From NCBI GenBank assembly GCA_016206685.1, contig JACQRB010000023.1, positions 29,287 to 93,286 of the forward strand: a stretch of DNA of 64,000 bases, written 5' to 3'. The notes beneath the pieces are model-generated. The model did no database searches and was not told the origin of the DNA. It saw only the letters and a program-made list of their open reading frames with translations. Positions 1 to 16,467 of this stretch are shown here, piece after piece; within the stretch, counting starts at the first letter, position 1, and each line of letters opens with the position of its first letter. This stretch comes from Candidatus Omnitrophota bacterium. GTDB lineage: Bacteria; Omnitrophota; Gorgyraeia; Aquiviventales; Aquiviventaceae. Both the position numbers and the translations under genes were made by a program.

Positions 1-266
1 CTGGCGTCCTCGCCGGCATCGGCGATATCGATCGTTGCCGGGAAGCGCTGTGAGGCGATGAAGTCCCGGATCGCCTCCGCCCGAAAGCCCGCGCACAACA
101 CAAACTCGCGAAACTGCTTGCCCAGATAGAATTCGATGATGTGCTGAAGGATCGGCTTGCCGTTGAGCGGCACCAAGGGCTTGGGCAGATCAGTGGGAAG
201 CGGCTGCAAGCGGCTGCCCCGTCCCCCGCACAAAATGACGAGTGGGGGCGGATGGGTTGTGGTCAT
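1..266 (-). CDS. sugar-1-phosphate nucleotidyltransferase, N-terminal fragment (glucose-1-phosphate cytidylyl/thymidylyltransferase family); the gene continues past the window start
   Basis: Manual minus-strand translation from the ATG at 266..264 gives MTTTHPPPLVILCGGRGSRLQPLPTDLPKPLVPLNGKPILQHIIEFYLGKQFREFVLCAGFRAE... This carries the G-G-x-G-(S/T)-R-L pyrophosphorylase loop and the KP(L/M)V motif of RfbF/RmlA-type enzymes. It is absent from the ORF track because it is truncated by the window edge. Confidence 0.55.
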   Translation of the reverse strand, partial: MTTTHPPPLVILCGGRGSRLQPLPTDLPKPLVPLNGKPILQHIIEFYLGKQFREFVLCAGFRAEAIRDFIASQRFPATIDIADAGEDA

Positions 267-1203
267 CTGATCTCTCCCGTACGATGAAGACCGGGCGACC
301 CTTGGTTTGATCATACACCCGGCCGATGTACTCTCCGAGGACTCCGATGGCAACCAGTTGGAGGCTCCCCAGGAACAGAATAGCGACCGTGAGCGTGGCC
401 CACCCCGGTGGCCACGGCAGATGGTGAGCGATGCGCAAGAGATCCATCACCCCCAGGCTAAACACAAACAGCATGTACAGCAACGCCAGCCCCGCGGTCA
501 GTGCCCCGATCAGCCCAACGATCCGAAGCGGATAGCGCGAGAAGGCAAACAATCCATCCAACGCAAACGCCACCAAGTGTCGATACGAGAACTTCGAGAC
601 GCTACGAAGGCGATCTTCCACATCGTAGAGGACCCCACGTTGTCGGAAGCCCACCCACTTCACCTGCCCCCGCAAAAATTTGTGATACTCCGGAATCTGC
701 AAGATCACCTCGGCCACCTTTCGGTCCAGCAGGCGAAAGTCCGAGAGCCCAAAATCAAGCTCCAGCCCGGAGAGCTTTGAGATGCCCCAGTAGAACAGTT
801 TCACCATAAGCAGCCGTGGCCATGGGACCCGGGCGTTACGCTTGGTGGTGTACACCACCTCAGCCCCGTCTTGCCACAGCGCGATCAGTTGGGGCAAGAG
901 CGCGGGGGGATGCTGCAGATCCGCGTCCATCGTGATGATCGCGTCTCCTCGGCACACCGACATCCCGGCAAACAGCGCGTTCTGATGTCCGAAGTTCCTG
1001 GAGAGGGAGAGGTAGCGGATCTTGGGGTCCTCGGCCCGGAGCCGTTTGATGACCTCCAAGGACTCATCGGTGCTGCCGTTATCAACGAACACCATCTCGT
1101 AGTCAACCTGGGCCTGCCGGCAGGCGTCCCGAACCTCCGTCGAGAGAGCGGTCAGGTTCTCGGCTTCGTTCCACACGGGAAACACGATTGAGACGATGCG
1201 CAT
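190..1203 (-). CDS. GT2 polyprenyl-phosphate sugar glycosyltransferase (ArnC/GtrB/DPM1-like) with C-terminal TM helices
   Basis: 337 aa ORF. N-terminal sequence VSIVFPVWNEAENL...VFVDNGSTDES...DADLQHPP shows GT2 DxD-type motifs. The C-terminal hydrophobic segments are typical of Und-P-sugar synthases. Confidence 0.75.
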   Translation of the reverse strand: MRIVSIVFPVWNEAENLTALSTEVRDACRQAQVDYEMVFVDNGSTDESLEVIKRLRAEDPKIRYLSLSRNFGHQNALFAGMSVCRGDAIITMDADLQHPPALLPQLIALWQDGAEVVYTTKRNARVPWPRLLMVKLFYWGISKLSGLELDFGLSDFRLLDRKVAEVILQIPEYHKFLRGQVKWVGFRQRGVLYDVEDRLRSVSKFSYRHLVAFALDGLFAFSRYPLRIVGLIGALTAGLALLYMLFVFSLGVMDLLRIAHHLPWPPGWATLTVAILFLGSLQLVAIGVLGEYIGRVYDQTKGRPVFIVRERSDDHNPSAPTRHFVRGTGQPLAAASH

Positions 1204-1212
1204 CTCACCCCC

Positions 1213-2271
1213 TCATGCTGGTGTCGCGTCCAGCAGGCCTGGGCTATTGGCACACGGTTCGCCGCCGTGGGCGGGAAAGCGAGGAGGCCATGCTCCCATG
1301 CGCTGAAGGATCTGCTGGGAGGCCGGCCATCTCCGGTCCAGCGCCAAGAGATCCACGATCCGTCGCTCCGTTCCCGCTTCCGGTGCCAGCGGCTCGGAGG
1401 CCCCGTAGAGAAAGCACTCGATCCCGAATCGCGAGAGATAACGGATCACCTCCCCGCGCTGTTCCCGCCAGACCTCAATGACCATCAGCCGAATGGACTG
1501 TTTGGCCAGCAGCCCTTCCGCCGAATACAGCACGTCCAGCTCGGCTCCCTCCACATCTATCTTGAGGATGCAGGGCCCGTTGACGAGCTCATCCAGCCGC
1601 CGGCAGGCGACGGTCACCGTCGGACGAAAGGCCGGATGGCGCGCGCAATAGGTCTCCGCGCGAATTTGCCGCGGGCCCGACCGGAATTCTTCCAGCGGCC
1701 GCAGCCCGCCACCGCCATCATTCAACGGATTGCGGAAATACGCCGCCGACCGGTTCCTGCTGGCGATGGCACAGGCCGGCACGTCGATCCGTTCCAGCCC
1801 GTTCAGAAGGAGATGAGCGCACAGAGCCCGGTGATTGTCCGGATCCGGCTCCACGGCCAGGACCCGTTTGGACGGATACGCCTGAGCGATCGTCATGGCG
1901 TACCAGCCGAGGTGGGCACCGACATCCACGAAGCAATCCGCGGACGGCATCCCGGCCGCGATGAGCCCAAGCCATTCCGCATCATACCGGCCCGCGGTGC
2001 GGAAGTGCCACAGCTGCGTGGTCTGACAGAGGTTGAGCTCCAAACGGAGGCATTTCGAAGAGTCCACGACATTGCGATACCGCACGCTGACGCGCCACGA
2101 TTGCCGCAGGCGGCGCAACACACCCAAAATGAGATGATGACAGTAGGCGGCGGCGCCGAGCGGTCGTCGCAGGATCTTTTCGCACGCGCGCCACGGATAA
2201 AAGATGCCGCCGGCAATCGCCCGGGCCAGCATCTGGCGCAGGAGATTGCTCATCCCGTTCAGCGTGGTCAT
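1213..2271 (-). CDS. FkbM-family SAM-dependent methyltransferase
   Basis: 352 aa. FDVGAHLGWY...LAVEPDPDNH...KIDVEGAELDVL matches the Methyltransf_21/FkbM pattern. Confidence 0.6.
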   Translation of the reverse strand: MTTLNGMSNLLRQMLARAIAGGIFYPWRACEKILRRPLGAAAYCHHLILGVLRRLRQSWRVSVRYRNVVDSSKCLRLELNLCQTTQLWHFRTAGRYDAEWLGLIAAGMPSADCFVDVGAHLGWYAMTIAQAYPSKRVLAVEPDPDNHRALCAHLLLNGLERIDVPACAIASRNRSAAYFRNPLNDGGGGLRPLEEFRSGPRQIRAETYCARHPAFRPTVTVACRRLDELVNGPCILKIDVEGAELDVLYSAEGLLAKQSIRLMVIEVWREQRGEVIRYLSRFGIECFLYGASEPLAPEAGTERRIVDLLALDRRWPASQQILQRMGAWPPRFPAHGGEPCANSPGLLDATPA

Positions 2272-4094
2272 CCCGCCACCGGAACCGTCAACTGCGTGAA
2301 CGCCCCCCGCCGGCCTCGCAACTGCTCCGGCGGCCCCTGTTCCACCGCACGGCCCTGATTCAGCACCACCACCCAGCCGGCCGAGGCCACCATGGTCTCT
2401 CCATGGGCGACCAGGATGACGGTGCGATGCCTGGTGGCGGTGGCGATGGCCTGCTGGACCAGCTGTTCTGACACGGCATCCAACGCGCTGGTCGCCTCAT
2501 CTAACACCAGCAGGTCCGGATCCCCCAAGACCGCGCGGGCGATGGCCAGGCGTTGTTGCTGGCCACCGGACAGCGTCGTCCCGCGCTCCCCCAGGATCGT
2601 CTCATAGCCGTGGGGCAACTGGCGAATGAACTCATCAGCGAGGGCGATGGTGGCGGCCTGGATCACCTGCTGACGCGAATAGTCGCGCCGCCCGATCAGG
2701 ATGTTCTCCACCACCGTCCCGCGGAAGATGAAGGGCTCCTGCGCCATGAACCCGATCCGCCGCAGCCAGCCGTTCCGGTCGTACGCCTGCAGCGGTGTCC
2801 CATCCACCAGGATGCAGCCCGCCGACGGCTCCAGCAGCCCCAACACCAGATTGAGCACGGTGGTCTTCCCTGAGCCCGATGGCCCGACGATGGCCGTGCA
2901 CAGACCCTTGCGAAACGCCACGCTCAGGCCCCGCAGCACGGGCGGCCGGCCTGGATACGCGAATGACACGCCGTCCAGGACCACCCCGTCCCGCAGATGA
3001 TCGAACCGACGCTGACCGTGCGGCACGGCAACCACGGGGATCGTCAGCGCCTGCCCAACGCGTTCGGCGTTGGGCAGGGCCTCATGGATCTCCATTCGCA
3101 GCCGTCCAAGACCCGACAGCGATGGCACGAGCTGGAACAACCCTACGGCAAATAACCCGGTGACCGGCAACGCCGACGTCATATGCGTCGGGGACCAGGC
3201 GCTCAACAGCCCCACCGAGACCAGCAGCAGGAGCACGATGGCCAACTCAATGATCGGCCGGGGGATGGCCAGCCACAGATGGAATCGGGCCAGCAACGTC
3301 GTATACCGTCGCGTCTGCTCACGGAAGCGCGAGAGCCATACCTCCTTGGTGCAGAAAATCGTCAGGTGTCGCATGCCCGTCAGCAATTCGTGCAGCAGCG
3401 TCATCTGCTCCGCATTGGCCTCCGCCCGTCCTTTCCCGCTGGTATAGGCGATCCGCAAAGATAGCGCATGCAGGAGCCCCATCACCCCCGCTGTCACGAC
3501 GCTCAGCACCATGGTCGGCACGGGGAACGCCACCAGAAGCACGACGGTAATCGCCGCCACCTTGAGCCACTCCATGATCCATTGGGGGATTTTCCGCACG
3601 AGCAATGCGACGCGCGTTGGAGCGACCGTGCAATCAAACAGCAGCGTGCCTTGCTTCTGTTCCGACAGCTGCGCGGGGGATGCGCCGGCATAGCGTGCCA
3701 GCACAGAGTTTTCCACATCCCACAGCACGCGCCCGCTCAACCGGGCGATGAGCCATTCCCGCAGCAGCACCACCCCCGCCCTGCAGATCATGACCGTCGC
3801 CAGCAGCACCATCGCACCAGGGAGGACGCCTCCCACCGGCAGGCGTTGCGCCAGCGAGACCACCCATCCCAATACACCGGTCACGCGACTCAGCCCCTCC
3901 GGATGCAGCACCACTTGAAACACGGGAAAGAAGGCGACCAAGCTCACGCTCTCGAGCACCGTCGCCACCGCCATGGCGACCACCACCCCGCCGAACAGCA
4001 ACGGATGCCCCCGAATGCATGCGGCCAGCGTGCTCCAAGCCGGAGAGCGCTCCCACCACCCTGAACGCCGGGGCCGCAGCGGCAGATCGGTCAT
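2268..4094 (-). CDS. ABC exporter, fused permease-ATPase (MsbA-like type I exporter)
   Basis: 608 aa. The N-terminal half is hydrophobic. The C-terminal half has Walker A GPSGSGKTT, the ABC signature LSGGQQQRLAIARA and Walker B LLVLDEATSALD. It has an ATGA overlap with the downstream gene at 2268-2271. Confidence 0.85.
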   Translation of the reverse strand: MTDLPLRPRRSGWWERSPAWSTLAACIRGHPLLFGGVVVAMAVATVLESVSLVAFFPVFQVVLHPEGLSRVTGVLGWVVSLAQRLPVGGVLPGAMVLLATVMICRAGVVLLREWLIARLSGRVLWDVENSVLARYAGASPAQLSEQKQGTLLFDCTVAPTRVALLVRKIPQWIMEWLKVAAITVVLLVAFPVPTMVLSVVTAGVMGLLHALSLRIAYTSGKGRAEANAEQMTLLHELLTGMRHLTIFCTKEVWLSRFREQTRRYTTLLARFHLWLAIPRPIIELAIVLLLLVSVGLLSAWSPTHMTSALPVTGLFAVGLFQLVPSLSGLGRLRMEIHEALPNAERVGQALTIPVVAVPHGQRRFDHLRDGVVLDGVSFAYPGRPPVLRGLSVAFRKGLCTAIVGPSGSGKTTVLNLVLGLLEPSAGCILVDGTPLQAYDRNGWLRRIGFMAQEPFIFRGTVVENILIGRRDYSRQQVIQAATIALADEFIRQLPHGYETILGERGTTLSGGQQQRLAIARAVLGDPDLLVLDEATSALDAVSEQLVQQAIATATRHRTVILVAHGETMVASAGWVVVLNQGRAVEQGPPEQLRGRRGAFTQLTVPVAG

Positions 4095-5236
4095 GGCGAG
4101 GCTCCGTTCGGGTCCAGCGCCCCGGCCACCGGGGCCATGGCCATGTCGCCAGATGGGCGATCAGGACGCGGCCGCATAGCTTCCCCGCCGATCCGGCCGA
4201 TATACTCAAACGACTGCGACGGATAGAGCACCGTCTCATAGAAGAACAGCCGCTTCCGCCGATAGAGGTGCGACGTCACCGGGGTAATTTGAAAATGCAG
4301 ACATTGCTTCCGGTCCCACACCGGATAGTCAAGGATGGTCAGGTCGGAATCGTAGCTCGGCGCGGACTGAAAACGGTTGACCGTGAAGACATATTGTGCG
4401 GTCGTGAAGACGGGCGAACTGAGATAGCGTGTGAACCATTCCCGCGTCATCTCGCCAAGCGAAAAGAAATTGGTGAAGAGATCCACCGTCCCCGGCGCAA
4501 TCCGCTGGTACCACGCCACGGGAACCAGCGCAACGTCATAGGCCTGGAGTACCTCGCGGGTCACCGCGGGGACCGAGGCCAACTCCTTCACGCCCGCGAT
4601 GCGCACCTCCGGAAGACAGCTCCCCAGAAAGTAGTAGGCCAGCAGCAGTTGCTCCGGAAAGTCCACCAAGATTGAGCGACTCTGCGGATACTCCGAGGCG
4701 AGCAAGTACGAGAAAATCGCATAGCTGCACCCCAGATCGAGGGCCACGAACGGCCTCGTCAGCCGCGGCCCCAGCACGCGGTTGAGCACATTCAGGTAGT
4801 GAATGTGCGTGTGCCACCGATAGGTGTAGCGATAGCCGTCCCGCCGGAAGATATGGGGGTTGCCCGCCGGATGGCAGGGGTATTGCTTCAGCAGCTCCAC
4901 ATCCCCACATTGCTTCAAGGTGTCCAAGCATTCGATCATCCGTCGGCGCGTCCCCCGGCGTCCCCCGGTCCAGTTGCGCGGGAGCCAGGGGTTGAGATTG
5001 ACGCCGCCATACTCAATGACGAAAATCCGGTCCCGTCGGAAGTTCCGCAACGCCTCCCGCTTGATCCGCAGATCTGGCGTGATGAACCGCTGGGGTTCCT
5101 CGGCCACCCGCTTGGCCCATCGGCTGCCCAGGTTCGTTTTGCCCTGGGTCAAGAGACCGTGGGCGGCTTGGGCTCGCAGCTCTTCCTCCACCCGGTCAAT
5201 TAGCGCGTCATCATGATGCATGTGCCCTGGCCTCAC
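4091..5236 (-). CDS. putative SAM-dependent methyltransferase (sugar O-methyltransferase-like)
   Basis: 381 aa. The divergent motif-I-like segment ALDLGCSYAIFSY and its overall size resemble putative sugar O-methyltransferases. This is a weak family assignment. Confidence 0.4.
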   Translation of the reverse strand: MRPGHMHHDDALIDRVEEELRAQAAHGLLTQGKTNLGSRWAKRVAEEPQRFITPDLRIKREALRNFRRDRIFVIEYGGVNLNPWLPRNWTGGRRGTRRRMIECLDTLKQCGDVELLKQYPCHPAGNPHIFRRDGYRYTYRWHTHIHYLNVLNRVLGPRLTRPFVALDLGCSYAIFSYLLASEYPQSRSILVDFPEQLLLAYYFLGSCLPEVRIAGVKELASVPAVTREVLQAYDVALVPVAWYQRIAPGTVDLFTNFFSLGEMTREWFTRYLSSPVFTTAQYVFTVNRFQSAPSYDSDLTILDYPVWDRKQCLHFQITPVTSHLYRRKRLFFYETVLYPSQSFEYIGRIGGEAMRPRPDRPSGDMAMAPVAGALDPNGASP

Positions 5237-5251
5237 GCGGCGGTCACGCCG

Positions 5252-6013
5252 TCAGGGTTTCTTCACGCACACGAATCCGACGAAGTTGTACCACTGGAAG
5301 AATGTTTCAACGACCTGGAAGCCGGCCTTCCGAAACAGTGCCATATTCTCATCGATGCGGTAGGGAATCAGGACGTTCTCCAACGCCTCCCGCTTGCGCA
5401 GAATCTCGGTGTCGGAATAGCTGTTGCGTTTCTTGAACTCGTAGTAGAGCTCGATGAACAGCCGGTTCATGTCGCTGCTGTTGGTCAGAATCTTTTCCGT
5501 CACGATGAGCGCGCCGCCGTCCACAAGCGCCTCGTAGAGCCGCCGCAGCAGCGCCTCCCGATGCAGCGGTCGGACGAACTGCAGCGTCCAGCAGAGCGTG
5601 ATGATGCTGGCAGGCTCCAGCGGCGCGTCATTGATATCGCCGTAGCGGATATCAATCAGGTGATCAAGCCCTTGTGCCTTGATGCGACCCCGGGCCTTCT
5701 CGACCATCGGCATCGAGTTGTCGTAGCCGATGAGCTGCGGCTGGTCATCGTTGAGCTCCCGCGCCATATTCATGAGGGTCGTCCCCGTGGAGGAACCTAA
5801 GTCATAGATGCGGGTGTCCGGCGTGTAGAATTTCTTCGCCAGCTCTTTGATGACCATCTGCTGCTCCACGTAGAACGGGACGCTGCGCAGCAGCATGTCA
5901 TCGAACACCTCAGCGACTTCCCGTGTAAACGCAAAATCACTGCCTCGCGCGGCGGTCCCTTCAAAGAGCTGATCACGCATCCTCTCTCCTTGTGTCTCTG
6001 CGGCCTCGGTCAT
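5252..6013 (-). CDS. cmoA-like: CmoA-family protein (carboxy-S-adenosyl-L-methionine synthase homologue / class I SAM MTase fold)
   Basis: AEVFDDMLLRSVPFY...RIYDLGSSTGTT...IGYDNS.PMVEKAR...LQFV...DGGALIVTEKI...YSDTEILRKREALENVLIP...AGFQVVETFFQWYNFVGFVCVKK is collinear with E. coli CmoA (VAEVFPDMIQRSVPGYS...VYDLGCSLGAAT...IAIDNSPAMIERCR...LENVMLTD...FQCFNFGSLVALK). The start was chosen at the internal ATG 6013, which forms an ATGA overlap with the upstream gene. The track ORF extends to 6100. Confidence 0.7.
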   Translation of the reverse strand: MTEAAETQGERMRDQLFEGTAARGSDFAFTREVAEVFDDMLLRSVPFYVEQQMVIKELAKKFYTPDTRIYDLGSSTGTTLMNMARELNDDQPQLIGYDNSMPMVEKARGRIKAQGLDHLIDIRYGDINDAPLEPASIITLCWTLQFVRPLHREALLRRLYEALVDGGALIVTEKILTNSSDMNRLFIELYYEFKKRNSYSDTEILRKREALENVLIPYRIDENMALFRKAGFQVVETFFQWYNFVGFVCVKKP

Positions 6014-6735
6014 CGCCGGATCTCCAGCAGCTCGAAGCGCATCACCAGGCATAAGCCGTTCGTCAGCAACCGCCGCTGCTCGGCGTCGCGCATCGTCCAT
6101 GTCCGGACCGGATCATCGGCGCGCGGCGGCAGATCGAAGGGCAGCTCAAACGGAATGAACGTGTGCCGCTCCGGCCCGACGTGCACGTCGAGATAACGCG
6201 AGAACGACGCCTTGCTGAAGAGATTCCAGCCCGGCTCCCGATGCTCGGGGTCTGGATCGTCCACCAACCGGTACTTCACCCAGACGTCGATGGGATGCGG
6301 GTTGAAGCCGCCAAAGACGTACACGCGTCCTCCCGGTTTTGTCCAGAAGAGCAAGTTCGACAGGCAGGGTTCAAACGCATCGAAGATGGAATGCACCCCC
6401 AGCAGGAAGGCGATATCCAGCGAGGCCTCGGGCAACAGCGCCCGGTCCAGCACGGAGCCCTCTCGAAACGTCACACCGGGAACCTTGCGTCGCGCCTGCG
6501 CCAGCAATTCCGGCACCACGTCGTAGCCAGTGTAATGGGCGTCCGGCACTTGCCGCTTCAGATACGCGAGAAATTGTCCCGCCGCACACCCGAAATCGCC
6601 CACCTGCGCCCCCGGCATAAGCGCACCGCTGGCCTGAGCCTGTGCGTAGGCGACCTTAAAGACTTCTTTGGGACGTTCGTAGTACTCGTCCGCCAGATAG
6701 ATGGCCTTATCGTGCGTTCGCGCAACGTTGATCAT
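6010..6735 (-). CDS. class I SAM-dependent methyltransferase
   Basis: 241 aa. Motif I is VGDFGCAAGQF and the post-I acidic residue is YTGYDVV. Its size is typical for Methyltransf_11/12. Confidence 0.6.
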   Translation of the reverse strand: MINVARTHDKAIYLADEYYERPKEVFKVAYAQAQASGALMPGAQVGDFGCAAGQFLAYLKRQVPDAHYTGYDVVPELLAQARRKVPGVTFREGSVLDRALLPEASLDIAFLLGVHSIFDAFEPCLSNLLFWTKPGGRVYVFGGFNPHPIDVWVKYRLVDDPDPEHREPGWNLFSKASFSRYLDVHVGPERHTFIPFELPFDLPPRADDPVRTWTMRDAEQRRLLTNGLCLVMRFELLEIRR

Positions 6736-7829
6736 GCACAGGAACCCGCGCCCACTTGCCCCTCGTTTCCAAAGACGGCTGGGAACACCGCCTTACGGCA
6801 GCGCTGACAAGCCAGGGGCTGTTTGGAGCCGTCGGGATCATTCACCGCCAGTCGCAGCCGCTTCATCTCTTCGCTATTCCAAATCGCATGGAGACGCTGG
6901 TCGAACACGTTGCCGATGTGAAGACTCAGCCCATCGAAACTGCAGCACGGATGAACCGATCCGTCATTGTTGATCGAGACGCGCTGGTACGGCTGAGGGC
7001 AATCTCCCACTTGCAACAAATCGGTATCCGGAATGCGAAATTGCTGCTCGAGCTGTGCATAGTTCGAGTAGCTGGCGGCAGGGTTGACAAACGACTGGAT
7101 ACAAATGAAATCCACTCGGTCTTTCCAATACGCCACGAACTCGTCAAGCTCCTTGTGGTTGAGCTTGCTCTTGACGAACGACACCCGGGTAATTGGGAGT
7201 TGCTTGCCCTGGGCTTTTTTCATCTCCAGAAAGCGGTTGATGTTGCCCATCACCTGCTGAAAGTTGCCGCCCGGCCGCACGTGGTTGTAGGTGTCTTCCC
7301 GAATGGCATCGAGCGAGAAATAGAGTTTCGTGAGCCCTGCATTGAGGAGTTCCTGCGCGCGGGTTTCCGTCAGCATCGTCGCATTCGTCAGGATGATGAC
7401 ATCCAGGACCCCGGCCTGGCTGGCGTAGCGGATGTAGTCGTGGAGATTGCGGGTTCCCAGCGGTTCATTATTGACATTCAGGGTGACGGAGGCCAGGCCG
7501 TGTGGGACCCCCTCATCGATGATCTCCTTGAACTTCTCGAACGTCACCACGTTCTGGCGGTTCTGGACGGCGTACGGGTGGTTGGCATCAAACTCCTCCG
7601 GCTTGATCTGCAAGACGCACTGGGGACAGCGTAGGTTGCAGCCGTAGTACAGCTCAAAGTCGATGTGGATGGGGTAGTCCTGAACGACCTTGAGCTCTTT
7701 GGCCTCCTCCCACCGCTGCCGATAGGCTCGGTACGGCTCACCCAGGATCTGGGCGAGCTTCGCATCCGGATCTCCGGTCACGGTGACCTGCTTCCATGTT
7801 GGTTTGGACATCAGATCCTCCTCAGCCAT
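6732..7829 (-). CDS. radical SAM enzyme with C-terminal SPASM/twitch-type Cys-rich domain
   Basis: The CNLRCPQC (CxxxCxxC) radical SAM cluster motif is near the N-terminus. The C-terminal segment CPQPYQRVSINNDGSVHPCC...ACQRCRKA is SPASM-like. The start is uncertain: the track ORF runs to 7895, and internal Mets lie at 7829 and 7811. Confidence 0.7.
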   Translation of the reverse strand: MAEEDLMSKPTWKQVTVTGDPDAKLAQILGEPYRAYRQRWEEAKELKVVQDYPIHIDFELYYGCNLRCPQCVLQIKPEEFDANHPYAVQNRQNVVTFEKFKEIIDEGVPHGLASVTLNVNNEPLGTRNLHDYIRYASQAGVLDVIILTNATMLTETRAQELLNAGLTKLYFSLDAIREDTYNHVRPGGNFQQVMGNINRFLEMKKAQGKQLPITRVSFVKSKLNHKELDEFVAYWKDRVDFICIQSFVNPAASYSNYAQLEQQFRIPDTDLLQVGDCPQPYQRVSINNDGSVHPCCSFDGLSLHIGNVFDQRLHAIWNSEEMKRLRLAVNDPDGSKQPLACQRCRKAVFPAVFGNEGQVGAGSCA

Positions 7830-8666
7830 GAGGGAACACCGCGACCAGTGGCTGCGAGTGGCCTGGAGCGGCTCCAAATTCAACCAGCCGGACATTGAGG
7901 GCAGCAGCTTTCATGTGCTTTTTTGCTCTGGGATAGCTGTGCTCTGTAAAATGGAAGAGGTTGGCCGCCGCGACAGCGTCGGCTTGACCCTCCACGACCC
8001 CTTGGACAAAATGGTCAAACGTCCCGGCGCCGCCGCAGGCGATCACGGGAATGTCCACGGCTTCCGCGACCGAATGCACCAACGCCAGGTCATATCCCTG
8101 CGCCATGCCATCTCGATCAATGGAGTTCAAGAAGATCTCCCCGGCGCCCTGCCGTTGGGCTTCCTGCGCCCACGCCACCGGCTCGCGCCCGGTCGGCGCC
8201 CGGCCGCAGTCGGCGACCACCTCATAGCGCCCGTCGTCATGGCGCTTGACGTCAATGGACACGACCAGGCACTGGCGCCCGAACACGCGAGCCGCCTCCC
8301 GCAGAAACGACGGCTCCTTGAGCGCGGCCGTGTTGATGACCACTTTATCGGCGCCGCGGCGCAGGCGCTGCGCGATGTCATCGAGCGTGCGGATGCCGCC
8401 GCCGAACGCCAGCGGCACGAAGCAGGCTTTGGACACGGCCGAGAGGATGTCCAGGATGTTCCGGAGACTTTTCACCTTGTGGTCGTCCCGCCGCAAATCG
8501 TGCTCCCCGTCCCGCGTGATATCGAGGTAGATCAGCTCATCCACCTGCCAGTCGGTAAACCGCTTCACCTGATGGATCGGATCGCCCAGGTTCTGGTGAT
8601 ACTGGAACTGCTCGCTGCGGACGATCAGCCCGTTCTTCAGCAAGATGCAGGGAATCAGCCGGGTCT

Positions 8667-8673
<7 letters not shown>
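7822..8673 (-). CDS. HisF-like imidazole glycerol phosphate synthase cyclase subunit homologue (WbuZ-type, LPS/glycan amidotransfer)
   Basis: Internal start MLKTRLIPCILLKNGLIVRS...ELIYLDITRDG...IPVIACGGAGT matches the HisF N-terminus and the (beta/alpha)8 phosphate-binding motifs. The track ORF carries an approximately 35 aa spurious extension. Confidence 0.75.
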
Positions 8674-9289
<616 letters not shown>

Positions 9290-9293
<4 letters not shown>

Positions 9294-10447
9294 CGGGCCA
9301 CGGCCTCGGGGTGTTGATCCCAAATGTTGTCTTTCGCCCATCGGCCATCGGCATCCTTGCGCCACACGCGCGGGTCGCGGAAGGTGTCGGCGATGCGGTC
9401 GAACTCCTCTTCGGTCATGCCGACGTACTCCAGCCATCGCTTCAGATCCCGCGGCTTCACATGGTCGTACTTCCTGACCATTTCAATGCCTTCCTCGCGC
9501 ATCATGTAGCCGGCTCGGATGTCCTTGCAGGCGTGGTCCGTCGCGCGTCCGTAGCCGAACTTGATGTATTTCAGGTAATCATGCGCCCCGTTCTCATGCA
9601 TGTCGTCGAGATTGGAGAACTTCCGATACGTACGATCAAACGGCTCCGGGGACGGCTCCCAGCCATACCGCTCCATCACCAGCTTCACATGCCGGTTGGC
9701 GTCCCATTCCACGTAGTTGCCCAGGAAGATTCCCCGCACGCCGACGCGCGCAATCTCTTGATCCGAAGGATAGCGGGCCCAGAGCATGTCCTGCGGCGTC
9801 AAACCGTCCGATGTCCCCGCCTCCACCAGATCCGTCCAATCAAAGCCGCGCTTCACGTATTCGTACACGAACCGGGCGGTCAGCTCCACCATGTCATACA
9901 GGGAATACATCCCGGCTAAATCCACCTGGCCGTGCTCCCCGTAAAACACGAGCGGAATCTGATGCGTCACGGCGATCTGAACCGGAACGGTGTAGATGCC
10001 GCAGTGGTTGTGCCAGTTCATATCCCCCATGAGCGTAAAGCCCAGACGGTTCAGCGTGACGAGCGTCTTCACGCTTGGCGAGCAGATCACGTGATCCACC
10101 CCGAAGACCTCCCGCATCCGCATGAGGTTGCGCCATCCCACCTCCAGAAAGTTGTTGCCGTTGTACGTGACCAACAACGGGTTCATCCCAAACTGCTCTT
10201 TGATGAGGTGAGTCTGGTAATAACTGTCCTTGCCGCCGCTGACGGCAATGATGCAGTCGTAGTTGCTGCCGTCCTTGGAGCGATACTCCTCCAGGAGTTC
10301 GCGCAGCATCTGTTCGCGCCGCCCCCAGTCGATCTGTGGCTTCTGCTCATGCACGCGGCATCCACTGCAGACCCCACGGTCATCGAACGTCAGCGGCAAT
10401 GCTGACGCCGACGGATAGACGCACCGCGTGCAGTAGCGCATCGCCAT
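9290..10447 (-). CDS. N-acetyl sugar amidotransferase (WbuX/PseA-like PP-loop ATP pyrophosphatase with N-terminal zinc ribbon)
   Basis: 385 aa. The N-terminal sequence CTRCVYPS...CSGCRVHE is a zinc ribbon. The PP-loop SGGKDS sits in IIAVSGGKDSYYQ. This enzyme family co-occurs with HisH/HisF homologues. Confidence 0.7.
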
Positions 10448-12415
10448 TCAGACCCACTCCGCGCTGAAGGCGTCTTGCCACAACGCTAAGTTGACCGCCC
10501 GCCACAGGACCCGTTGCTCGGGCGCGCGCCATGCATCCCGCTGCAACCAGCGCTGCACGACCTTGCGATCAACCACCCGCGCCATGAACGGGTTGGCACA
10601 CACCAGTTCCGTCAGTCGCGGACGATGCTCCCGAAACCACTCGTCGGTGAGGCGATGCCGCATCCCCTGCTTCTGCACGCGGCAGCGGATGGCCTCGGGC
10701 AGCAATCCCTGCATGCTGTTCCTCAGCGGCGCCTTGCGCAGGCCGCCCTCGATGAGGTTCACCCTCTCAGCGGCAAAGCCGTACTCCACCAGGCGGTGAT
10801 CCAGAAACGGCACGCGGGCTTCGACCGAGTGAGCCATGGCGTTGCGGTCGGCATGGTGGAGGAAATACGGCAGCCGCTCCACATAGATGTTCCGCAGCAT
10901 GGCGGCCCGCAGACTGATCCCTTCCCAGAACGTTTCTCGTTTTGGACGCCGCGCCCACTGATACTGATGGAGCATCTGGTCGGACACCATCCGGCGACCG
11001 TGGATCCGGCCGGATCGAGACAGCGCGCGCTCCATGGTATTGAGGATGCCGTCCGGAATGACCCGTTGAAACGACCGCGCCAACGGCGTGAACAGCTCCC
11101 AGGGTTGGCCGCGGTAGTAGCGGCGCCACAACTGGGCAAACTCCGAGCCGGCGGCACGCACCCGCCCACGGCGCAGTAGATGCAGCAAGTACGGCGCGTC
11201 GTAGTACGGATAGCCAAGTAGATACTCATCTGCCCCATGGCCTTCGAGGCAGGTCTTCACGTGCCGGCGTGAGTAGCGATGGATTTGCCATTGCCCGACG
11301 GCGCCTGACCACTCCTGGAACGGCTGGTCGTAGGCATAGGCCACACGCCGCAGTTCCTCCAACGGCAACGGCTCCAAGGGCACCCGGTGAGTAGTAAAGC
11401 CGTCCAGTGCAGCCAAATGGGCGGCATGCTGCACGTCCTCGGTGTCCTGGGGTGAGACTCCCACGAACGCGTCAACCGGCCGGGACATGAAGAGGCGAAG
11501 GGCCGAGGACACCGAGGAGGAGTCCACCCCTCCGCTCAGGCTCACCCCCAGCGGCACGTCAGCCACGCTCCGCAGGCGGACGGCGTCCAAGAACAACTCC
11601 CGAAACGTGCACCCATTGGTGGCGACGGGGCCTCGCTCGGCCAAGTGATAGAATCGCCGCATGGTCAGGGTGTGCGAGTCCAACGCGTAGGTCGCCACCG
11701 TTCCCGGCTCCAGCGCATGAATGTCCGCGAAGAAGGTATTGGGCAGATGGTTCGTCCGGCTGAAGACGAGGTAGTCCCACACGGCATCAGGGTTTGCAAG
11801 GGCTCGGACGCCGGGACAGCACAGCAGCGCTTTGGGCTCTGAGGCGACCGCGAACACCGTCGGAAGGTCCACGAAGTAGAGCGGCTTGATCCCGAACCGA
11901 TCCCGAGACAGAAATAGGGTCCGAGCCGGTTGATCGAAGATCACAAACGCCCATTCCCCGTTGAACCGCTGGACACACGCCTCGCCCCATTGTTGGTACG
12001 CCTTCAGGATGACTTCGGTGTCCGCATTGGAGCGAAACCGATGGCCCAGTATTTCCAGATCATGACGGAGCTCGCGCCAGTTGTAAATCTCGCCGTTAAA
12101 GACAATCCAATAACGCTGCGTCTCGTCGGACATCGGTTGGTGGCCGCGAGCGCTGACATCTACGATCGCCAAGCGGCGGTGGCCCAACATTACATCCGGG
12201 AGGGGCATCTGGGGATTCAACCGCGGCAACTGGGCGCGGATTTCTTCCACCGTGTCTTCTCCGGCATACGCCTGAATCCGATCACTCGATGAATCATAAA
12301 GGGCGTAACCTTCATCATCCGGACCTCGGTGCCGCAGGGCATTGGTCATGCTGAACAGCGTGGCTCCTTCAAGAGGACTGGAATCTTTGGCAACGAGCGC
12401 GATAACCCCGCACAT
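10448..12415 (-). CDS. asparagine synthase (glutamine-hydrolysing)-like amidotransferase (AsnB family)
   Basis: 655 aa. MCGVIALV gives the N-terminal nucleophile Cys2 of the class II GATase domain. The synthetase domain has the PP-loop SLSGGVDSS. Confidence 0.8.
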   Translation of the reverse strand: MCGVIALVAKDSSPLEGATLFSMTNALRHRGPDDEGYALYDSSSDRIQAYAGEDTVEEIRAQLPRLNPQMPLPDVMLGHRRLAIVDVSARGHQPMSDETQRYWIVFNGEIYNWRELRHDLEILGHRFRSNADTEVILKAYQQWGEACVQRFNGEWAFVIFDQPARTLFLSRDRFGIKPLYFVDLPTVFAVASEPKALLCCPGVRALANPDAVWDYLVFSRTNHLPNTFFADIHALEPGTVATYALDSHTLTMRRFYHLAERGPVATNGCTFRELFLDAVRLRSVADVPLGVSLSGGVDSSSVSSALRLFMSRPVDAFVGVSPQDTEDVQHAAHLAALDGFTTHRVPLEPLPLEELRRVAYAYDQPFQEWSGAVGQWQIHRYSRRHVKTCLEGHGADEYLLGYPYYDAPYLLHLLRRGRVRAAGSEFAQLWRRYYRGQPWELFTPLARSFQRVIPDGILNTMERALSRSGRIHGRRMVSDQMLHQYQWARRPKRETFWEGISLRAAMLRNIYVERLPYFLHHADRNAMAHSVEARVPFLDHRLVEYGFAAERVNLIEGGLRKAPLRNSMQGLLPEAIRCRVQKQGMRHRLTDEWFREHRPRLTELVCANPFMARVVDRKVVQRWLQRDAWRAPEQRVLWRAVNLALWQDAFSAEWV

Positions 12416-12418
12416 AGT

Positions 12419-14611: not shown

Positions 14612-15432
14612 CCCCGGGCTCCGAATGGCAGCCCCGTCCCTACGCGCTGCGCCAGCTCCCGATACGCCGCGACGAGACGTCCCGCGTCTCGATAGTATTC
14701 GATCGTCACGAACTCCACCGGCGCGCGCGCGCAGAGCCACTCGAGCAGCTCCCATTCCCGCGGCCCCGGTGGCTCGTGCAGGTCCTCCCAGATCCCGCTG
14801 AGCGGGCCGCACGCGCTGATCTGCACTTCGCGCACGCGATGGAGCGGCAAGGCCTCCAGGTACGCCTCGGGTGTCGTTCCCAGATTTTCGGCGGAAATCC
14901 TGGCGTGCGCCACATCCAGCAGCAGCTCCGCGTCGATCGCCTCCAGCACCCGGCCCATGAAGCCGGGGTCGCAGACCATGCCGTAGGCATCGCTGGGGGT
15001 TGGAAAATAGTTGAGGTTCTCTACGCGCAGCGTTCCCGGAAAACGCGCGCGCAACCACGCCGCGTGGCGGCGGGCCAAGGCGATGTACTCCGGCTCGCCC
15101 AGGCGAGGGCCGCGAAGGTGGTAGCGGGGATAGCCGTTGGGCGAGGCGACCGTCTCCACGTCGTGGACGGCCGGACCGAAGTCGCAGGCGACACTCTGGA
15201 CCGAACGGCGCGCCATCAAGCGCCACAGCCCGAGCTCCTCAAGCTGCGCGCCAAAGGCCTCATCAATGATGTTGACCGGGGTGTCCATGAACGCCGTGGC
15301 GTTCGGGAAGCACGGCTCCGGTCGGTACCGCTTATATGTGACCGCGGCAATCAGGGGCGCCAAGGCATCAGCCGCCGCCAACGCCGCGTCGCTGGAGGCG
15401 ACGCACAGTCGTGGAACGACGTCGCTTCTCAT
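14608..15432 (-). CDS. DUF692/MNIO-like TIM-barrel protein (xylose-isomerase-like superfamily), function unknown in this context
   Basis: 274 aa from internal Met MRSDVV... LRVENLNYFPTP...LLLDVAHARISAENLGTTPEAYLEALPLHRVREVQISAC...ELLEWLCARAPV.EFVTIEY resembles the UPF0276/DUF692 pattern (ENVSxY...LLLDVNNVYV...DP..YLD.LP..RV.E.H.AG), recalled from memory. It is ATGA-coupled on both sides, at 14608-14611 and 15429-15432. Confidence 0.5.
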   Translation of the reverse strand: MRSDVVPRLCVASSDAALAAADALAPLIAAVTYKRYRPEPCFPNATAFMDTPVNIIDEAFGAQLEELGLWRLMARRSVQSVACDFGPAVHDVETVASPNGYPRYHLRGPRLGEPEYIALARRHAAWLRARFPGTLRVENLNYFPTPSDAYGMVCDPGFMGRVLEAIDAELLLDVAHARISAENLGTTPEAYLEALPLHRVREVQISACGPLSGIWEDLHEPPGPREWELLEWLCARAPVEFVTIEYYRDAGRLVAAYRELAQRVGTGLPFGARG

Positions 15433-16466: not shown

Positions 16467-16467
16467 G

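What the first reader, a model, noticed from the sequence alone, without database searches (positions are those of the whole stretch)
5252..6013. CmoA (carboxy-SAM synthase) homologue in a glycan locus without CmoB
The protein aligns along its whole length with E. coli CmoA, which makes carboxy-S-adenosylmethionine from prephenate and SAM for tRNA cmo5U synthesis. It sits here among sugar methyltransferases, ATGA-coupled to the next MTase, and no CmoB-like carboxymethyltransferase is obvious. If it retains Cx-SAM synthase activity, one of the neighbouring class I MTases could transfer a carboxymethyl group to the glycan, an undescribed glycan modification. Alternatively it is a CmoA-fold ordinary O/N-methyltransferase.
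Basis: partly seen in the sequence, partly recalled or inferred. Interest (0 to 1): 0.65.

Follow-up and report, generated by a model that had tools for sequence, protein, structure and literature searches.

The report
Carboxy-SAM synthase in a sugar-tailoring operon
A gene for the enzyme that makes carboxy-SAM (normally used to modify tRNA) sits in a sialic-acid-like sugar operon, always beside an uncharacterised sugar methyltransferase-like gene and with no tRNA partner nearby, which predicts that bacteria put a carboxymethyl group on surface sugars, a modification not yet described.

Summary
Window 5252-5980 (- strand) encodes a full-length CmoA homologue: TIGR00740 scores 253 bits against a cutoff of 193, and the match to E. 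coli CmoA structure 4GEK has E = 4e-53. Every Cx-SAM-contacting residue is kept, including Arg199, except Asn132 (Cys here). A phage Cx-SAM synthase with proven activity has Leu at that position.

The likely start is ATG 5980, which has a strong ribosome-binding site and gives the 242 aa NCBI annotates.

No CmoB is present in the 64-kb window, nor within 10 kb of about 80 related CmoA genes from many phyla.

The gene directly downstream (4091-5221) matches TIGR04371, "putative sugar O-methyltransferase", and is predicted to have a class I methyltransferase fold. Relatives of this gene almost always have a CmoA-type gene beside them: 20 of 20 dereplicated loci with at least 3 kb on both flanks, and 43 of 44 with at least 1.5 kb upstream. 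These loci usually also carry NeuB, a CMP-transferase, a PFTS-motif protein, an AsnB-like gene and a radical-SAM gene.

Best reading: a Cx-SAM synthase supplies a dedicated carboxymethyltransferase that tailors a nonulosonic-acid glycan. This would be a new variant of the known CmoA-plus-transferase systems. It is untested biochemically, and the acceptor is unknown.

The parts
5252..5980 (-). CmoA-type carboxy-SAM synthase, 242 aa.
   Evidence: TIGR00740 scores 253.1 bits against a cutoff of 193.3. PDB 4gek E = 4e-53. It is identical to NCBI 'CmoA' P0001. A Shine-Dalgarno sequence AAGGAG lies before ATG 5980. Ligand residues are conserved, including Arg199.
4091..5221 (-). TIGR04371 'putative sugar O-methyltransferase'-like protein, 376 aa. 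Proposed Cx-SAM-dependent carboxymethyltransferase and the conserved partner of CmoA.
   Evidence: TIGR04371 scores 75.7 bits against a cutoff of 44; there is no Pfam hit. The AF2 model has pLDDT 91 and pTM 0.90. Foldseek finds only class I MTases, at TM about 0.3. A CmoA-type gene is adjacent in 20/20 and 43/44 dereplicated loci. Invariant residues: R135, D162, G164, Y167, Q191, N251, S254, G256, E257, M258, Y266, N282, Y299; W136, G168, F252 and R283 in 97-99%.
6010..6735 (-). Class I methyltransferase, 241 aa, ATGA-coupled to the radical-SAM gene upstream of it. Not a conserved neighbour of CmoA.
   Evidence: Matches Methyltransf_25/11/12. No homologue lies adjacent to CmoA in other loci. 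It is not CmoM-like.
6732..7895 (-). Radical SAM / SPASM-domain enzyme. A recurrent member of the CmoA/TIGR04371 module.
   Evidence: Matches PF04055 and PF13186. Homologues lie next to the pair in 8 of 22 well-flanked loci.
10448..12415 (-). Glutamine-hydrolysing asparagine-synthase-like amidotransferase. A candidate for amidating a carboxyl group.
   Evidence: Matches PF00733, GATase_7 and TIGR01536. AsnB-like genes recur beside CmoA (8 of 22 loci). The phage S-B43 arrangement is CmoA, CmoY (annotated 'asparagine synthase'), CmoX.
7822..10447 (-). WbuX-type N-acetyl sugar amidotransferase (9290-10447), HisH-like (8667-9437) and HisF-like (7822-8778): an acetamidino-forming trio.
   Evidence: TIGR03573 scores 347 bits. 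GATase and His_biosynth matches. The same trio occurs in the distant locus L172.
12419..19742 (-). Nonulosonic-acid core genes: a cytidylyltransferase fused to two GNAT domains (12419-15226), NeuB-family synthase (15429-16508), PseC-like aminotransferase (16468-17790) and two dehydratase/epimerase genes (17660-19742).
   Evidence: Pfam and NCBIfam matches.
19580..21601 (-). PFTS-motif polysaccharide biosynthesis protein.
   Evidence: TIGR04417 scores 95.3 bits, just under its cutoff of 100. PFTS genes lie beside CmoA in L001, L004, L088, L096, L098, L099, L104 and L142.
190..4094 (-). Fused TMD-NBD ABC exporter (2268-4094), FkbM-family methyltransferase (1213-2271) and GT2 glycosyltransferase (190-1203). 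These lie downstream in the same operon.
   Evidence: Pfam and NCBIfam matches. The same order is seen in L001-L004.

Best explanation
The gene at 5252-5980 encodes a working carboxy-S-adenosylmethionine (Cx-SAM) synthase. It converts SAM plus prephenate into Cx-SAM, as E. coli CmoA does. Here it does not serve tRNA. It is one half of a two-gene tailoring module inside a nonulosonic-acid (pseudaminic/legionaminic-type) glycan operon.

The other half is the gene directly downstream (4091-5221), a class I methyltransferase-fold protein of the TIGR04371 'putative sugar O-methyltransferase' family. This protein is proposed to use Cx-SAM instead of SAM and to transfer a carboxymethyl group (+58 Da) to a hydroxyl or amino group of the nonulosonic acid, its nucleotide-activated precursor, or the assembled glycan. 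The AsnB-like amidotransferase in the operon may then amidate the new carboxylate.

Shown here: family membership, conservation of active-site residues, the predicted fold of the partner, and the gene linkage.

Inferred: Cx-SAM synthesis by this protein, Cx-SAM use by the partner, the acceptor, and any amidation step.
For: 1. CmoA identity. TIGR00740 is above its cutoff. Full-length matches to 4gek and 1im8 have E around 1e-51 to 1e-53.

2. Active site.
- All residues that contact the Cx-SAM cofactor in E. coli CmoA (PMC3663124) are kept in the window protein. Arg199 is invariant in all 83 clade members.
- Only Asn132 differs (Cys here). The phage S-B43 CmoA, shown to make Cx-SAM (PMC12783734), has Leu there. 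That enzyme is only 27% identical to the window protein and 29% identical to E. coli CmoA, whereas the window protein is 39% identical to E. coli CmoA.
- The polar residues shared by both validated enzymes (S35, Y39, Q136, E164, K165, K185, K198) are all present.

3. No CmoB. None is found in the window, and no convincing E. coli CmoB homologue (one weak 26%-identity hit, in L013) lies within 10 kb of any of the 84 CmoA loci scanned.

4. Linkage to the downstream gene.
- A scan for relatives of the downstream gene returned 80 metagenome loci.
- A CmoA-superfamily gene lies on the same strand, usually less than 500 nt away, in 22/22 loci with at least 3 kb on both flanks and 48/52 with at least 1.5 kb upstream. 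After dereplication at 90% these become 20/20 and 43/44.
- The linkage holds down to 27% CmoA identity and across loci of 22-64% GC.
- A far relative of the partner (P0299, E about 1e-39) also has a CmoA-type gene two genes away.

5. Partner fold. The partner is confidently predicted as a class I MTase fold, with motif I and the ribose-binding acidic residue aligned to CmoB's.

6. Precedent. Every known non-tRNA Cx-SAM system is a CmoA homologue encoded next to an MTase-fold consumer: TglE/TglF, MccS/MccB-CTD, and phage CmoA/CmoX.

7. Accessory-gene behaviour.
- Other clade members sit next to other, unrelated MTase-fold genes in polysaccharide loci: 28 loci with a class I MTase of about 256 aa, 24 with TIGR04325, and 4 with an NRPS.
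- Some MAGs carry two copies (L036/L042 and L045/L061).
- Archaeal MAGs also carry the gene (L014; P0089).

8. Operon structure. The window operon is tightly packed on one strand, with ATGA overlaps.
Against: - There is no biochemical evidence for any step.
- The rest of this genome could not be searched, so a CmoB elsewhere, and therefore a dual or tRNA role, is not excluded.
- I could not place residues of the partner relative to the cofactor because no coordinates were available. I also found no residue that distinguishes Cx-SAM users from SAM users: the invariant R135 and R283 are also present in the most distant member examined.
- No natural carboxymethylated bacterial glycan turned up in the literature searched. 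This cuts both ways: it could mean novelty, or that the chemistry does not occur.
- Some members of the same CmoA clade sit in non-glycan contexts, next to genes that by their sequences look like thymidine kinase, XdhC/MobA and UvrD (not run against any family library).
- The clade carries its own substitutions near the sulfonium (N132C/F133W, H181Y, S200E). Their effect is unknown.
Confidence: 0.66

Rival explanations
1. It is the organism's housekeeping tRNA-modification CmoA. It supplies Cx-SAM to a CmoB encoded elsewhere for cmo5U34 synthesis, and its position in the glycan operon is incidental.
For: It passes the CmoA equivalog model and NCBI names it CmoA. cmoA and cmoB need not be adjacent. 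The rest of the genome could not be inspected. A few clade members lie in housekeeping-like contexts.
Against: - No CmoB lies within 10 kb in any of the roughly 80 loci or within 64 kb here.
- Linkage to the TIGR04371-like gene is near-obligate over deep divergence.
- Members from different phyla share 55-65% identity with one another but only about 35-39% with E. coli CmoA, which is the pattern of a mobile accessory gene.
- Single MAGs carry two copies, and archaeal MAGs carry the gene.
Confidence: 0.1
2. It is a CmoA-fold enzyme that has become an ordinary SAM-dependent O- or N-methyltransferase, or another SAM-using enzyme, acting directly on the sugar. No Cx-SAM is made.
For: The clade has its own substitutions next to the sulfonium (N132C, F133W, H181Y, S200E). 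The operon is rich in ordinary methyltransferases.
Against: - Arg199 is not conserved in ordinary SAM methyltransferases (PMC3663124), yet it is invariant in 83/83 clade members.
- The polar residues shared by the two experimentally validated Cx-SAM synthases are all retained.
- In CmoA the cofactor is buried under a lid that blocks the usual substrate site (PMC3663124). The lid region aligns without gaps.
- A validated Cx-SAM synthase also lacks Asn132.
Confidence: 0.08
3. Cx-SAM is made, but the consumer is not the TIGR04371-like protein. Instead one of the other MTases in the operon uses it (6010-6735, FkbM 1213-2271, or the radical-SAM enzyme), or the TIGR04371-like protein acts as a non-catalytic partner or carrier of CmoA.
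For: The upstream MTase is only 29 nt away. Product inhibition of CmoA by tightly bound Cx-SAM (PMC4482062) could favour a hand-off partner. Radical-SAM genes recur in the module.
Against: - Neither the upstream MTase nor FkbM is a conserved neighbour of CmoA.
- The TIGR04371-like protein keeps an intact motif I, a ribose-binding acidic residue and an invariant N-F-x-S-x-G-E-M loop after strand 4, where class I MTases do catalysis.
Confidence: 0.12

Closest known systems
E. coli CmoA/CmoB (tRNA cmo5U34 pathway)
   Same: The synthase half is the same: a full-length homologue that passes the TIGR00740 equivalog model, with Arg199 and the cofactor-binding residues conserved. The logic is also the same: a Cx-SAM synthase encoded next to an MTase-fold consumer.
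   Different: No CmoB lies nearby. The partner belongs to another family, with no profile similarity to CmoB beyond motif I. The context is a nonulosonic-acid glycan operon rather than tRNA modification. Identity to E. coli CmoA is only 39%, and the clade has its own substitutions (N132C/F133W, H181Y, S200E).
Phage S-B43 CmoA/CmoX/CmoY (DNA 5-carboxymethylcytosine and its glycine amide; PMC12783734)
   Same: CmoA is recruited away from tRNA and lacks CmoB. It is encoded beside a repurposed methyltransferase homologue. An 'asparagine synthase'-like ligase lies in the same cluster and amidates the carboxymethyl group. AsnB-like genes recur in the glycan modules too.
   Different: The acceptor here is presumably a sugar, not DNA cytosine. 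The transferase is a TIGR04371-like protein, not a C5-MTase. The window AsnB-like protein has a glutamine-amidotransferase domain, so it would be expected to make a primary amide rather than a glycine amide. That is inference.
TglE/TglF (3-thiaglutamate) and MccS/MccB-CTD (Bacillus microcin C-like antibiotic)
   Same: These are CmoA homologues in secondary-metabolite clusters that supply Cx-SAM to an adjacent carboxymethyltransferase. MccB-CTD shows that the consumer need not resemble CmoB.
   Different: Their substrates are a peptide thiol and a peptidyl-cytidylate. No glycan case is described in the literature searched.
TIGR04371 'putative sugar O-methyltransferase' family
   Same: The downstream protein scores above the family cutoff, and NCBI and JGI name it accordingly.
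   Different: Only the C-terminal 160 profile positions match. In every subfamily member that could be examined, a CmoA-type gene is nearby. This suggests that the annotated 'methyl' transfer is really carboxymethyl transfer for this subfamily.

Membership tests
CmoA (carboxy-SAM synthase, TIGR00740) | Full-length match to the curated equivalog model, above its cutoff. | tested here: met
   253.1 bits against a cutoff of 193.3, covering profile positions 1-239 of 239. The narrower enterobacterial model PRK15451 scores 188 bits, below its cutoff of 285.
CmoA (carboxy-SAM synthase, TIGR00740) | An Arg199 equivalent that salt-bridges the carboxylate of Cx-SAM. This residue is absent from ordinary SAM methyltransferases. 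| tested here: met
   Arg is present in the window protein and in 83/83 clade members.
CmoA (carboxy-SAM synthase, TIGR00740) | The remaining cofactor-contacting residues: Y39, D62, G64, S66, D89, N90, D117, N132, F137, E164. | tested here: met
   All are kept except N132, which is Cys here. N132 is Leu in the experimentally active phage enzyme, so it is not defining.
CmoA (carboxy-SAM synthase, TIGR00740) | Catalyses SAM + prephenate -> Cx-SAM + phenylpyruvate. | not testable with these tools
   This needs an enzyme assay.
tRNA cmo5U34 pathway (CmoA with CmoB) | A CmoB carboxymethyltransferase (TIGR00452) is present, typically adjacent to cmoA. | tested here: not met
   None is found in the 64-kb window; the best hit is 42.7 bits against a cutoff of 275. 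No convincing hit lies within 10 kb in the 84 loci scanned; the only one is a 26%-identity match in L013. The rest of the genome could not be searched.
tRNA cmo5U34 pathway (CmoA with CmoB) | tRNA carries cmo5U34 that depends on this gene. | not testable with these tools
   This needs tRNA mass spectrometry in a carrier organism.
Non-tRNA Cx-SAM two-enzyme systems (TglE/F, MccS/MccB, phage CmoA/CmoX) | A CmoA homologue is encoded beside an MTase-fold protein other than the tRNA enzyme, inside a biosynthetic or modification cluster. | tested here: met
   The adjacent TIGR04371-like protein has a class I MTase fold. Linkage is 20/20 and 43/44 in dereplicated loci.
Non-tRNA Cx-SAM two-enzyme systems (TglE/F, MccS/MccB, phage CmoA/CmoX) | The partner carries basic residue(s) positioned to bind the Cx-SAM carboxylate (Lys91/Arg315 in CmoB; a key Arg in CmoX). 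| tested here: inconclusive
   R135 is invariant and R283 is 97% conserved in 76 partner sequences. Their position relative to the cofactor could not be determined because no coordinates were returned, and no SAM-using comparison group was available.
TIGR04371 putative sugar O-methyltransferase | Match to the family model above its cutoff. | tested here: met
   75.7 bits against a cutoff of 44. Protein residues 124-287 match profile positions 113-273 of 273.

The most novel reading that the evidence does not exclude
A widespread two-gene module, made of a CmoA-type Cx-SAM synthase and a TIGR04371-type transferase, installs a carboxymethyl group on nonulosonic-acid sugars of cell-surface glycans. 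AsnB-like and radical-SAM enzymes often accompany it, and the carboxymethyl group may then be amidated. The module occurs in many bacterial lineages, including abundant low-GC marine ones. This would be the first use of Cx-SAM in glycobiology and a new class of glycan modification. Sister pairings of the same CmoA clade with TIGR04325, generic class I, PEMT/ICMT-like and NRPS-embedded methyltransferases would extend carboxymethylation to other polysaccharides, lipids and peptides.
Probability: 0.5. Interest if true: 0.82.

Novelty: new variant of a known kind. Interest (0 to 1): 0.7.

Why it matters
Cx-SAM is a rare cofactor. The only documented uses are tRNA cmo5U, one peptide-derived natural product, one peptidyl-nucleotide antibiotic and, since 2025, phage DNA.

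If the module described here works as proposed, three things follow:
- Carboxymethylation becomes a glycan modification, adding a new negative charge or an amidable handle on sialic-acid-like surface sugars. Such sugars govern phage, immune and predator recognition.
- A family now annotated 'putative sugar O-methyltransferase' would be mis-annotated.
- Mass-spectrometric surveys of nonulosonic acids would need to look for +58.005 Da and +57.02 Da.

The module also gives enzyme engineers natural Cx-SAM-selective transferases from several unrelated methyltransferase families.

Tried and rejected
1. Exact-sequence look-ups of the window CmoA, in both the 253-aa and 242-aa forms, found no contig on record. 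The rest of this genome therefore could not be examined for CmoB.

2. I looked for a CmoB in disguise.
- tblastn with E. coli CmoB against the window gave only a generic SAM-motif hit at 27.5-27.7 kb. This is a Trm112-like zinc ribbon fused to a class I MTase, far below the CmoB cutoffs.
- hhalign of CmoB against the TIGR04371-like profile and against the other partner families gave probabilities below 6%.

3. I tested whether the upstream MTase (6010-6735) could be a CmoM-like methyl-esterifying enzyme. BLASTP shows no similarity.

4. I tried to find residues specific to Cx-SAM users by comparing CmoA-linked with unlinked TIGR04371 members.
- No unlinked comparison group could be assembled.
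- One distant member sits on a 2.6-kb contig with no CmoA in view.
- A better-flanked one turned out to be CmoA-linked too.

6. tblastn of the partner against plasmids gave no match.

7. Literature searches for natural carboxymethylated glycans returned only methodological uses of the word.

8. The original Nature paper on Cx-SAM is not held in the library. The prephenate-pocket residues proposed there could therefore not be checked one by one.
Full report
**1. The observation**

All long, high-GC3 ORFs in the window lie on the minus strand and form one packed glycan locus. The ORF ending at 5252 encodes a protein that aligns over its whole length with E. coli CmoA:
- 39% identity over 236 residues, E = 3.6e-54.
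- PDB 4gek E = 4.3e-53, and H. influenzae YecO 1im8 E = 3.1e-51.
- It passes the curated CmoA equivalog model TIGR00740 (253.1 bits, cutoff 193.3).
- An identical 242-aa protein is deposited as 'carboxy-S-adenosyl-L-methionine synthase CmoA' from a Candidatus Omnitrophica MAG on a 109-kb contig.

The match is far beyond chance.

One detail needs correction. The ATG at 6013 does overlap the TGA of the upstream methyltransferase. However, the ATG at 5980 follows AAGGAGAGAGG and gives the N-terminus shared by all homologues, which are 242-247 aa long. The gene is therefore most likely 5252-5980, 29 nt downstream of the upstream MTase.

**2. The surroundings**

In the direction of transcription the operon reads as follows:
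- PFTS-motif protein (19580-21601).
- Two dehydratase/epimerase genes (17660-19742).
- PseC-like aminotransferase (16468-17790).
- NeuB-family nonulosonic acid synthase (15429-16508).
- A cytidylyltransferase fused to two GNAT domains (12419-15226).
- Glutamine-dependent AsnB-like amidotransferase (10448-12415).
- WbuX-type N-acetyl sugar amidotransferase with HisH- and HisF-like partners (7822-10447).
- Radical SAM/SPASM enzyme (6732-7895).
- Class I MTase (6010-6735).
- CmoA (5252-5980).
- TIGR04371 'putative sugar O-methyltransferase' (4091-5221).
- Fused ABC exporter (2268-4094).
- FkbM methyltransferase (1213-2271).
- GT2 glycosyltransferase (190-1203).

This is a pseudaminic/legionaminic-type nonulosonic-acid glycan locus. 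No CmoB is in the 64 kb. The only hit to the CmoB models is 42.7 bits (cutoff 275), over the generic SAM-binding segment of a Trm112-fused MTase at 27037-28062.

**3. Is the active site that of a Cx-SAM synthase?**

The E. coli structure paper lists the residues that hold the cofactor: Tyr39, Asp62, Gly64, Ser66, Asp89, Asn90, Asp117, Asn132, Phe137 and Glu164. It also singles out Arg199, which salt-bridges the carboxylate and is not conserved in ordinary methyltransferases (PMC3663124).

In the window protein all of these are conserved except Asn132, which is Cys. Across 83 members of its clade Arg199 is invariant. The clade has its own signature: N132C, F133W, H181Y and S200E.

The contact made by residue 133 to the carboxymethyl methylene goes through the backbone (PMC4482062), so the side-chain change there need not matter.

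- It is 27% identical to the window protein and 29% identical to E. coli CmoA.
- It has Leu at position 132.
- It has K-E-K at positions 198-200.

The window protein is thus closer to E. coli CmoA than this validated enzyme is. It also keeps every polar residue that the two validated enzymes share (S35, Y39, Q136, E164, K165, K185, K198).

**4. Relatives and their neighbours**

*Closest relatives.* The closest relatives (71-78% identity, metagenomes) have the same cassette: MTase or unknown gene, CmoA, a gene of about 350-377 aa without Pfam hits, FkbM, ABC exporter, radical SAM genes and GT2. NeuB, a cytidylyltransferase and a PFTS protein lie upstream.

*Genome scan.* A scan of one genome per species returned 80 loci at 47-65% identity. 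They come from Nitrospirota, Planctomycetota, Omnitrophota, Elusimicrobiota, Acidobacteriota, Myxococcota, Gammaproteobacteria, Bacteroidota and even Bathyarchaeia. No convincing E. coli CmoB homologue lies within 10 kb of any of them; the only hit is a 26%-identity match in L013.

*Immediate neighbours.* Clustering the neighbours showed that the gene immediately beside CmoA is usually an MTase-fold protein, but of different families:
- A class I MTase of about 256 aa, directly downstream, in 28 loci.
- A TIGR04325 (LIC12133-type) MTase, directly upstream, in 24 loci.
- The TIGR04371-like protein in the window's nearest relatives.
- A PEMT/ICMT/LmtA-like membrane MTase in 9 loci.
- An NRPS with an embedded MTase domain in 4 loci.

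These partner families are unrelated to one another and to CmoB by profile comparison. Annotated examples confirm the polysaccharide or lipid context: GT4, GT2, Wzx, PMT_2, AsnB-like and FkbM genes.

*Other signs of an accessory role.* Two MAGs carry two copies each (L036/L042 and L045/L061). A minority of loci look like housekeeping contexts, judged by reading the neighbouring protein sequences only.

**5. The reciprocal test**

I aligned the seven TIGR04371-like partners and scanned metagenomes for relatives of that protein rather than of CmoA.
- Of 80 loci, 55 contain a CmoA-superfamily gene.
- The proportion rises to 22/22 where at least 3 kb is available on both sides, and 48/52 where at least 1.5 kb is available upstream.
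- After dereplication at 90% identity the figures are 20/20 and 43/44.
- The CmoA genes are on the same strand, mostly 30-460 nt away, and range from 78% down to 27% identity to the window protein.
- All keep the S-x-P-x-Y, T-x-Q-F, E-K, K185 and K198 signature. Position 190 is Tyr, or Phe in some of the divergent loci. In the most divergent, low-GC marine group the basic residue sits at position 200 or 203 instead of 199, as in the validated phage enzyme.
- Loci span 22-64% GC.

A profile search of 1.84 billion representatives finds 1,324 family members at E <= 1e-10. One distant subfamily (441 aa, Tara Oceans contigs) has this gene order: WbuX-like, HisH, HisF, unknown, AsnB, TIGR04371-like, FMN-dependent dehydrogenase, a 236-aa CmoA-superfamily protein, and further on AsnB, an AMP-binding enzyme and NeuB. 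These are the same accessory genes as in the window.

The typical order in better-conserved loci is NeuB, cytidylyltransferase, PFTS protein, CmoA, TIGR04371-like, with AsnB-like and radical-SAM genes frequent. The linkage is far too consistent to be incidental.

**6. The partner protein**

It has no Pfam hit. AlphaFold2 on a 41-sequence alignment gives a confident model (pLDDT 91, pTM 0.90).

Foldseek against the PDB returns only class I SAM-dependent methyltransferases at low TM-score (about 0.3). These include WbdD, OvoM and, at rank 42, Cx-SAM-bound CmoB. The protein therefore has the methyltransferase fold with novel elaborations and no close solved relative.

Across 76 sequences the fully invariant residues are:
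- R135 in the helix before strand 1, with W136 beside it (75 of 76).
- D162, G164 and Y167 (motif I), with G168 beside them (75 of 76).
- Q191.
- N251-F252-x-S254-x-G256-E257-M258, after strand 4, where class I enzymes carry out transfer (F252 in 75 of 76).
- Y266, N282 and Y299.

R283 is conserved in 97%.

hhalign aligns motif I and the ribose-binding acidic residue with those of CmoB. I could not determine whether R135 or R283 contacts the extra carboxylate.

**7. Mechanism proposed**

- Inferred from strong homology: CmoA makes Cx-SAM from SAM and prephenate.
- Inferred from linkage, fold and precedent: the TIGR04371-like enzyme uses Cx-SAM to carboxymethylate a hydroxyl or amine of the nonulosonic acid, its activated precursor or the glycan.
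- Speculative: the AsnB-like enzyme may convert the carboxymethyl group to its amide. The basis is the phage CmoA/CmoY/CmoX precedent, in which CmoY is annotated 'asparagine synthase', and the recurrence of AsnB-like genes in the module.

The role of the recurrent radical-SAM/SPASM enzyme is unexplained.

**8. Comparison with what is known**

Cx-SAM is documented in:
- tRNA cmo5U (CmoA/CmoB).
- 3-thiaglutamate biosynthesis (TglE/TglF).
- A Bacillus microcin C-like antibiotic (MccS/MccB-CTD).
- Phage DNA 5-carboxymethylcytosine (CmoA/CmoX).

In the searchable library, no paper links CmoA or Cx-SAM to glycans or nonulosonic acids. A search for natural carboxymethylated LPS found only methodological uses of the word. 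Subscription literature could not be searched, so prior description cannot be fully excluded.

The protein is a member of the CmoA family by every testable criterion. It is not part of a CmoA/CmoB pair as far as the available sequence shows. The system is best classed as a new variant of the known 'CmoA plus dedicated carboxymethyltransferase' kind.

**9. Verdict**

The bolder of its two interpretations is supported by the residue test and by strong, reciprocal gene linkage.
- Confidence that this is a Cx-SAM synthase working with the downstream TIGR04371-like transferase on the glycan: about 0.66.
- The tRNA-only reading: about 0.10.
- The ordinary-methyltransferase reading: about 0.08.
- A different consumer within the operon: about 0.12.
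- Interest: 0.70.

Noticed in passing
window 10448-12415 (-); L088:4101-5504, L096:7057-8847, L172:6181-8004 and 12550-14256; L086:3684-4499: AsnB-like amidotransferases recur beside CmoA-type genes in the glycan modules (8 of 22 well-flanked loci). This mirrors the phage S-B43 arrangement CmoA, CmoY ('asparagine synthase'), CmoX, in which the carboxymethyl group is amidated. The window copy has an N-terminal Cys2 glutaminase domain.
   Followed up: partly
window 6732-7895 (-); L110:3367-4170, L118:7069-7893, L126:7785-8588, L128:6994-7782: A radical SAM/SPASM enzyme is a frequent third member of the CmoA/TIGR04371 module, often directly adjacent. Its role is unexplained.
   Followed up: partly
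L077, L078, L080, L081, L083 (Larkinella spp.), about 9200-18000: In cultured Bacteroidota the same CmoA clade is paired with a PEMT/ICMT/LmtA-like membrane methyltransferase. By reading their protein sequences (no family search was run), the flanking genes look like two TetR-type regulators followed by TolC/MFP/RND efflux genes. This is a non-glycan CmoA-plus-MTase pair in strains that could be tested experimentally.
   Followed up: partly
L021:10766-15277, L038:10769-15298, L052:5884-10413: CmoA lies directly upstream of an NRPS module of about 1,500 aa with an embedded methyltransferase domain. This suggests carboxymethylation of a nonribosomal peptide.
   Followed up: no
L172:9313-10344 (also L171:1741-2607): In Tara Oceans loci an FMN-dependent alpha-hydroxy-acid dehydrogenase gene (PF01070) sits between the TIGR04371-like gene and the CmoA-type gene.
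   Followed up: no
window 27037-28062 (-): A Trm112-like zinc-ribbon domain is fused to a class I methyltransferase inside the glycan locus. It gives weak, sub-threshold hits to the CmoB models over the SAM-binding region only.
   Followed up: partly
window 12419-15226 (-): A single long ORF fuses a CMP-sugar cytidylyltransferase domain (residues about 208-378) with two GNAT acetyltransferase domains. The first ~200 residues of the longest ORF are Arg/Ala/Gly-rich and probably not translated, so the real start is likely near 14600.
   Followed up: no
L036 and L042 (one betaproteobacterial MAG); L045 and L061 (one Granulosicoccaceae MAG); L014 (Bathyarchaeia MAG): Two copies of the glycan-type CmoA occur in single MAGs, and copies occur in archaeal MAGs. 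The cmo5U modification has been reported only from bacterial tRNA, so these copies are hard to fit into a tRNA role.
   Followed up: no
L169:1746-2822: A DAHP_synth_1-family gene (either KDO8P or DAHP synthase) lies four genes upstream of CmoA, on the opposite strand, in a gammaproteobacterial polysaccharide locus. If it is a DAHP synthase, it could relate to prephenate supply.
   Followed up: no
window 19580-21601 (-); L001:7328-9325; L096:4138-5835; L098:4161-5990: A PFTS-motif protein (TIGR04417, function unknown) is very often the gene immediately before CmoA or the TIGR04371-like gene in NeuB-containing loci.
   Followed up: partly
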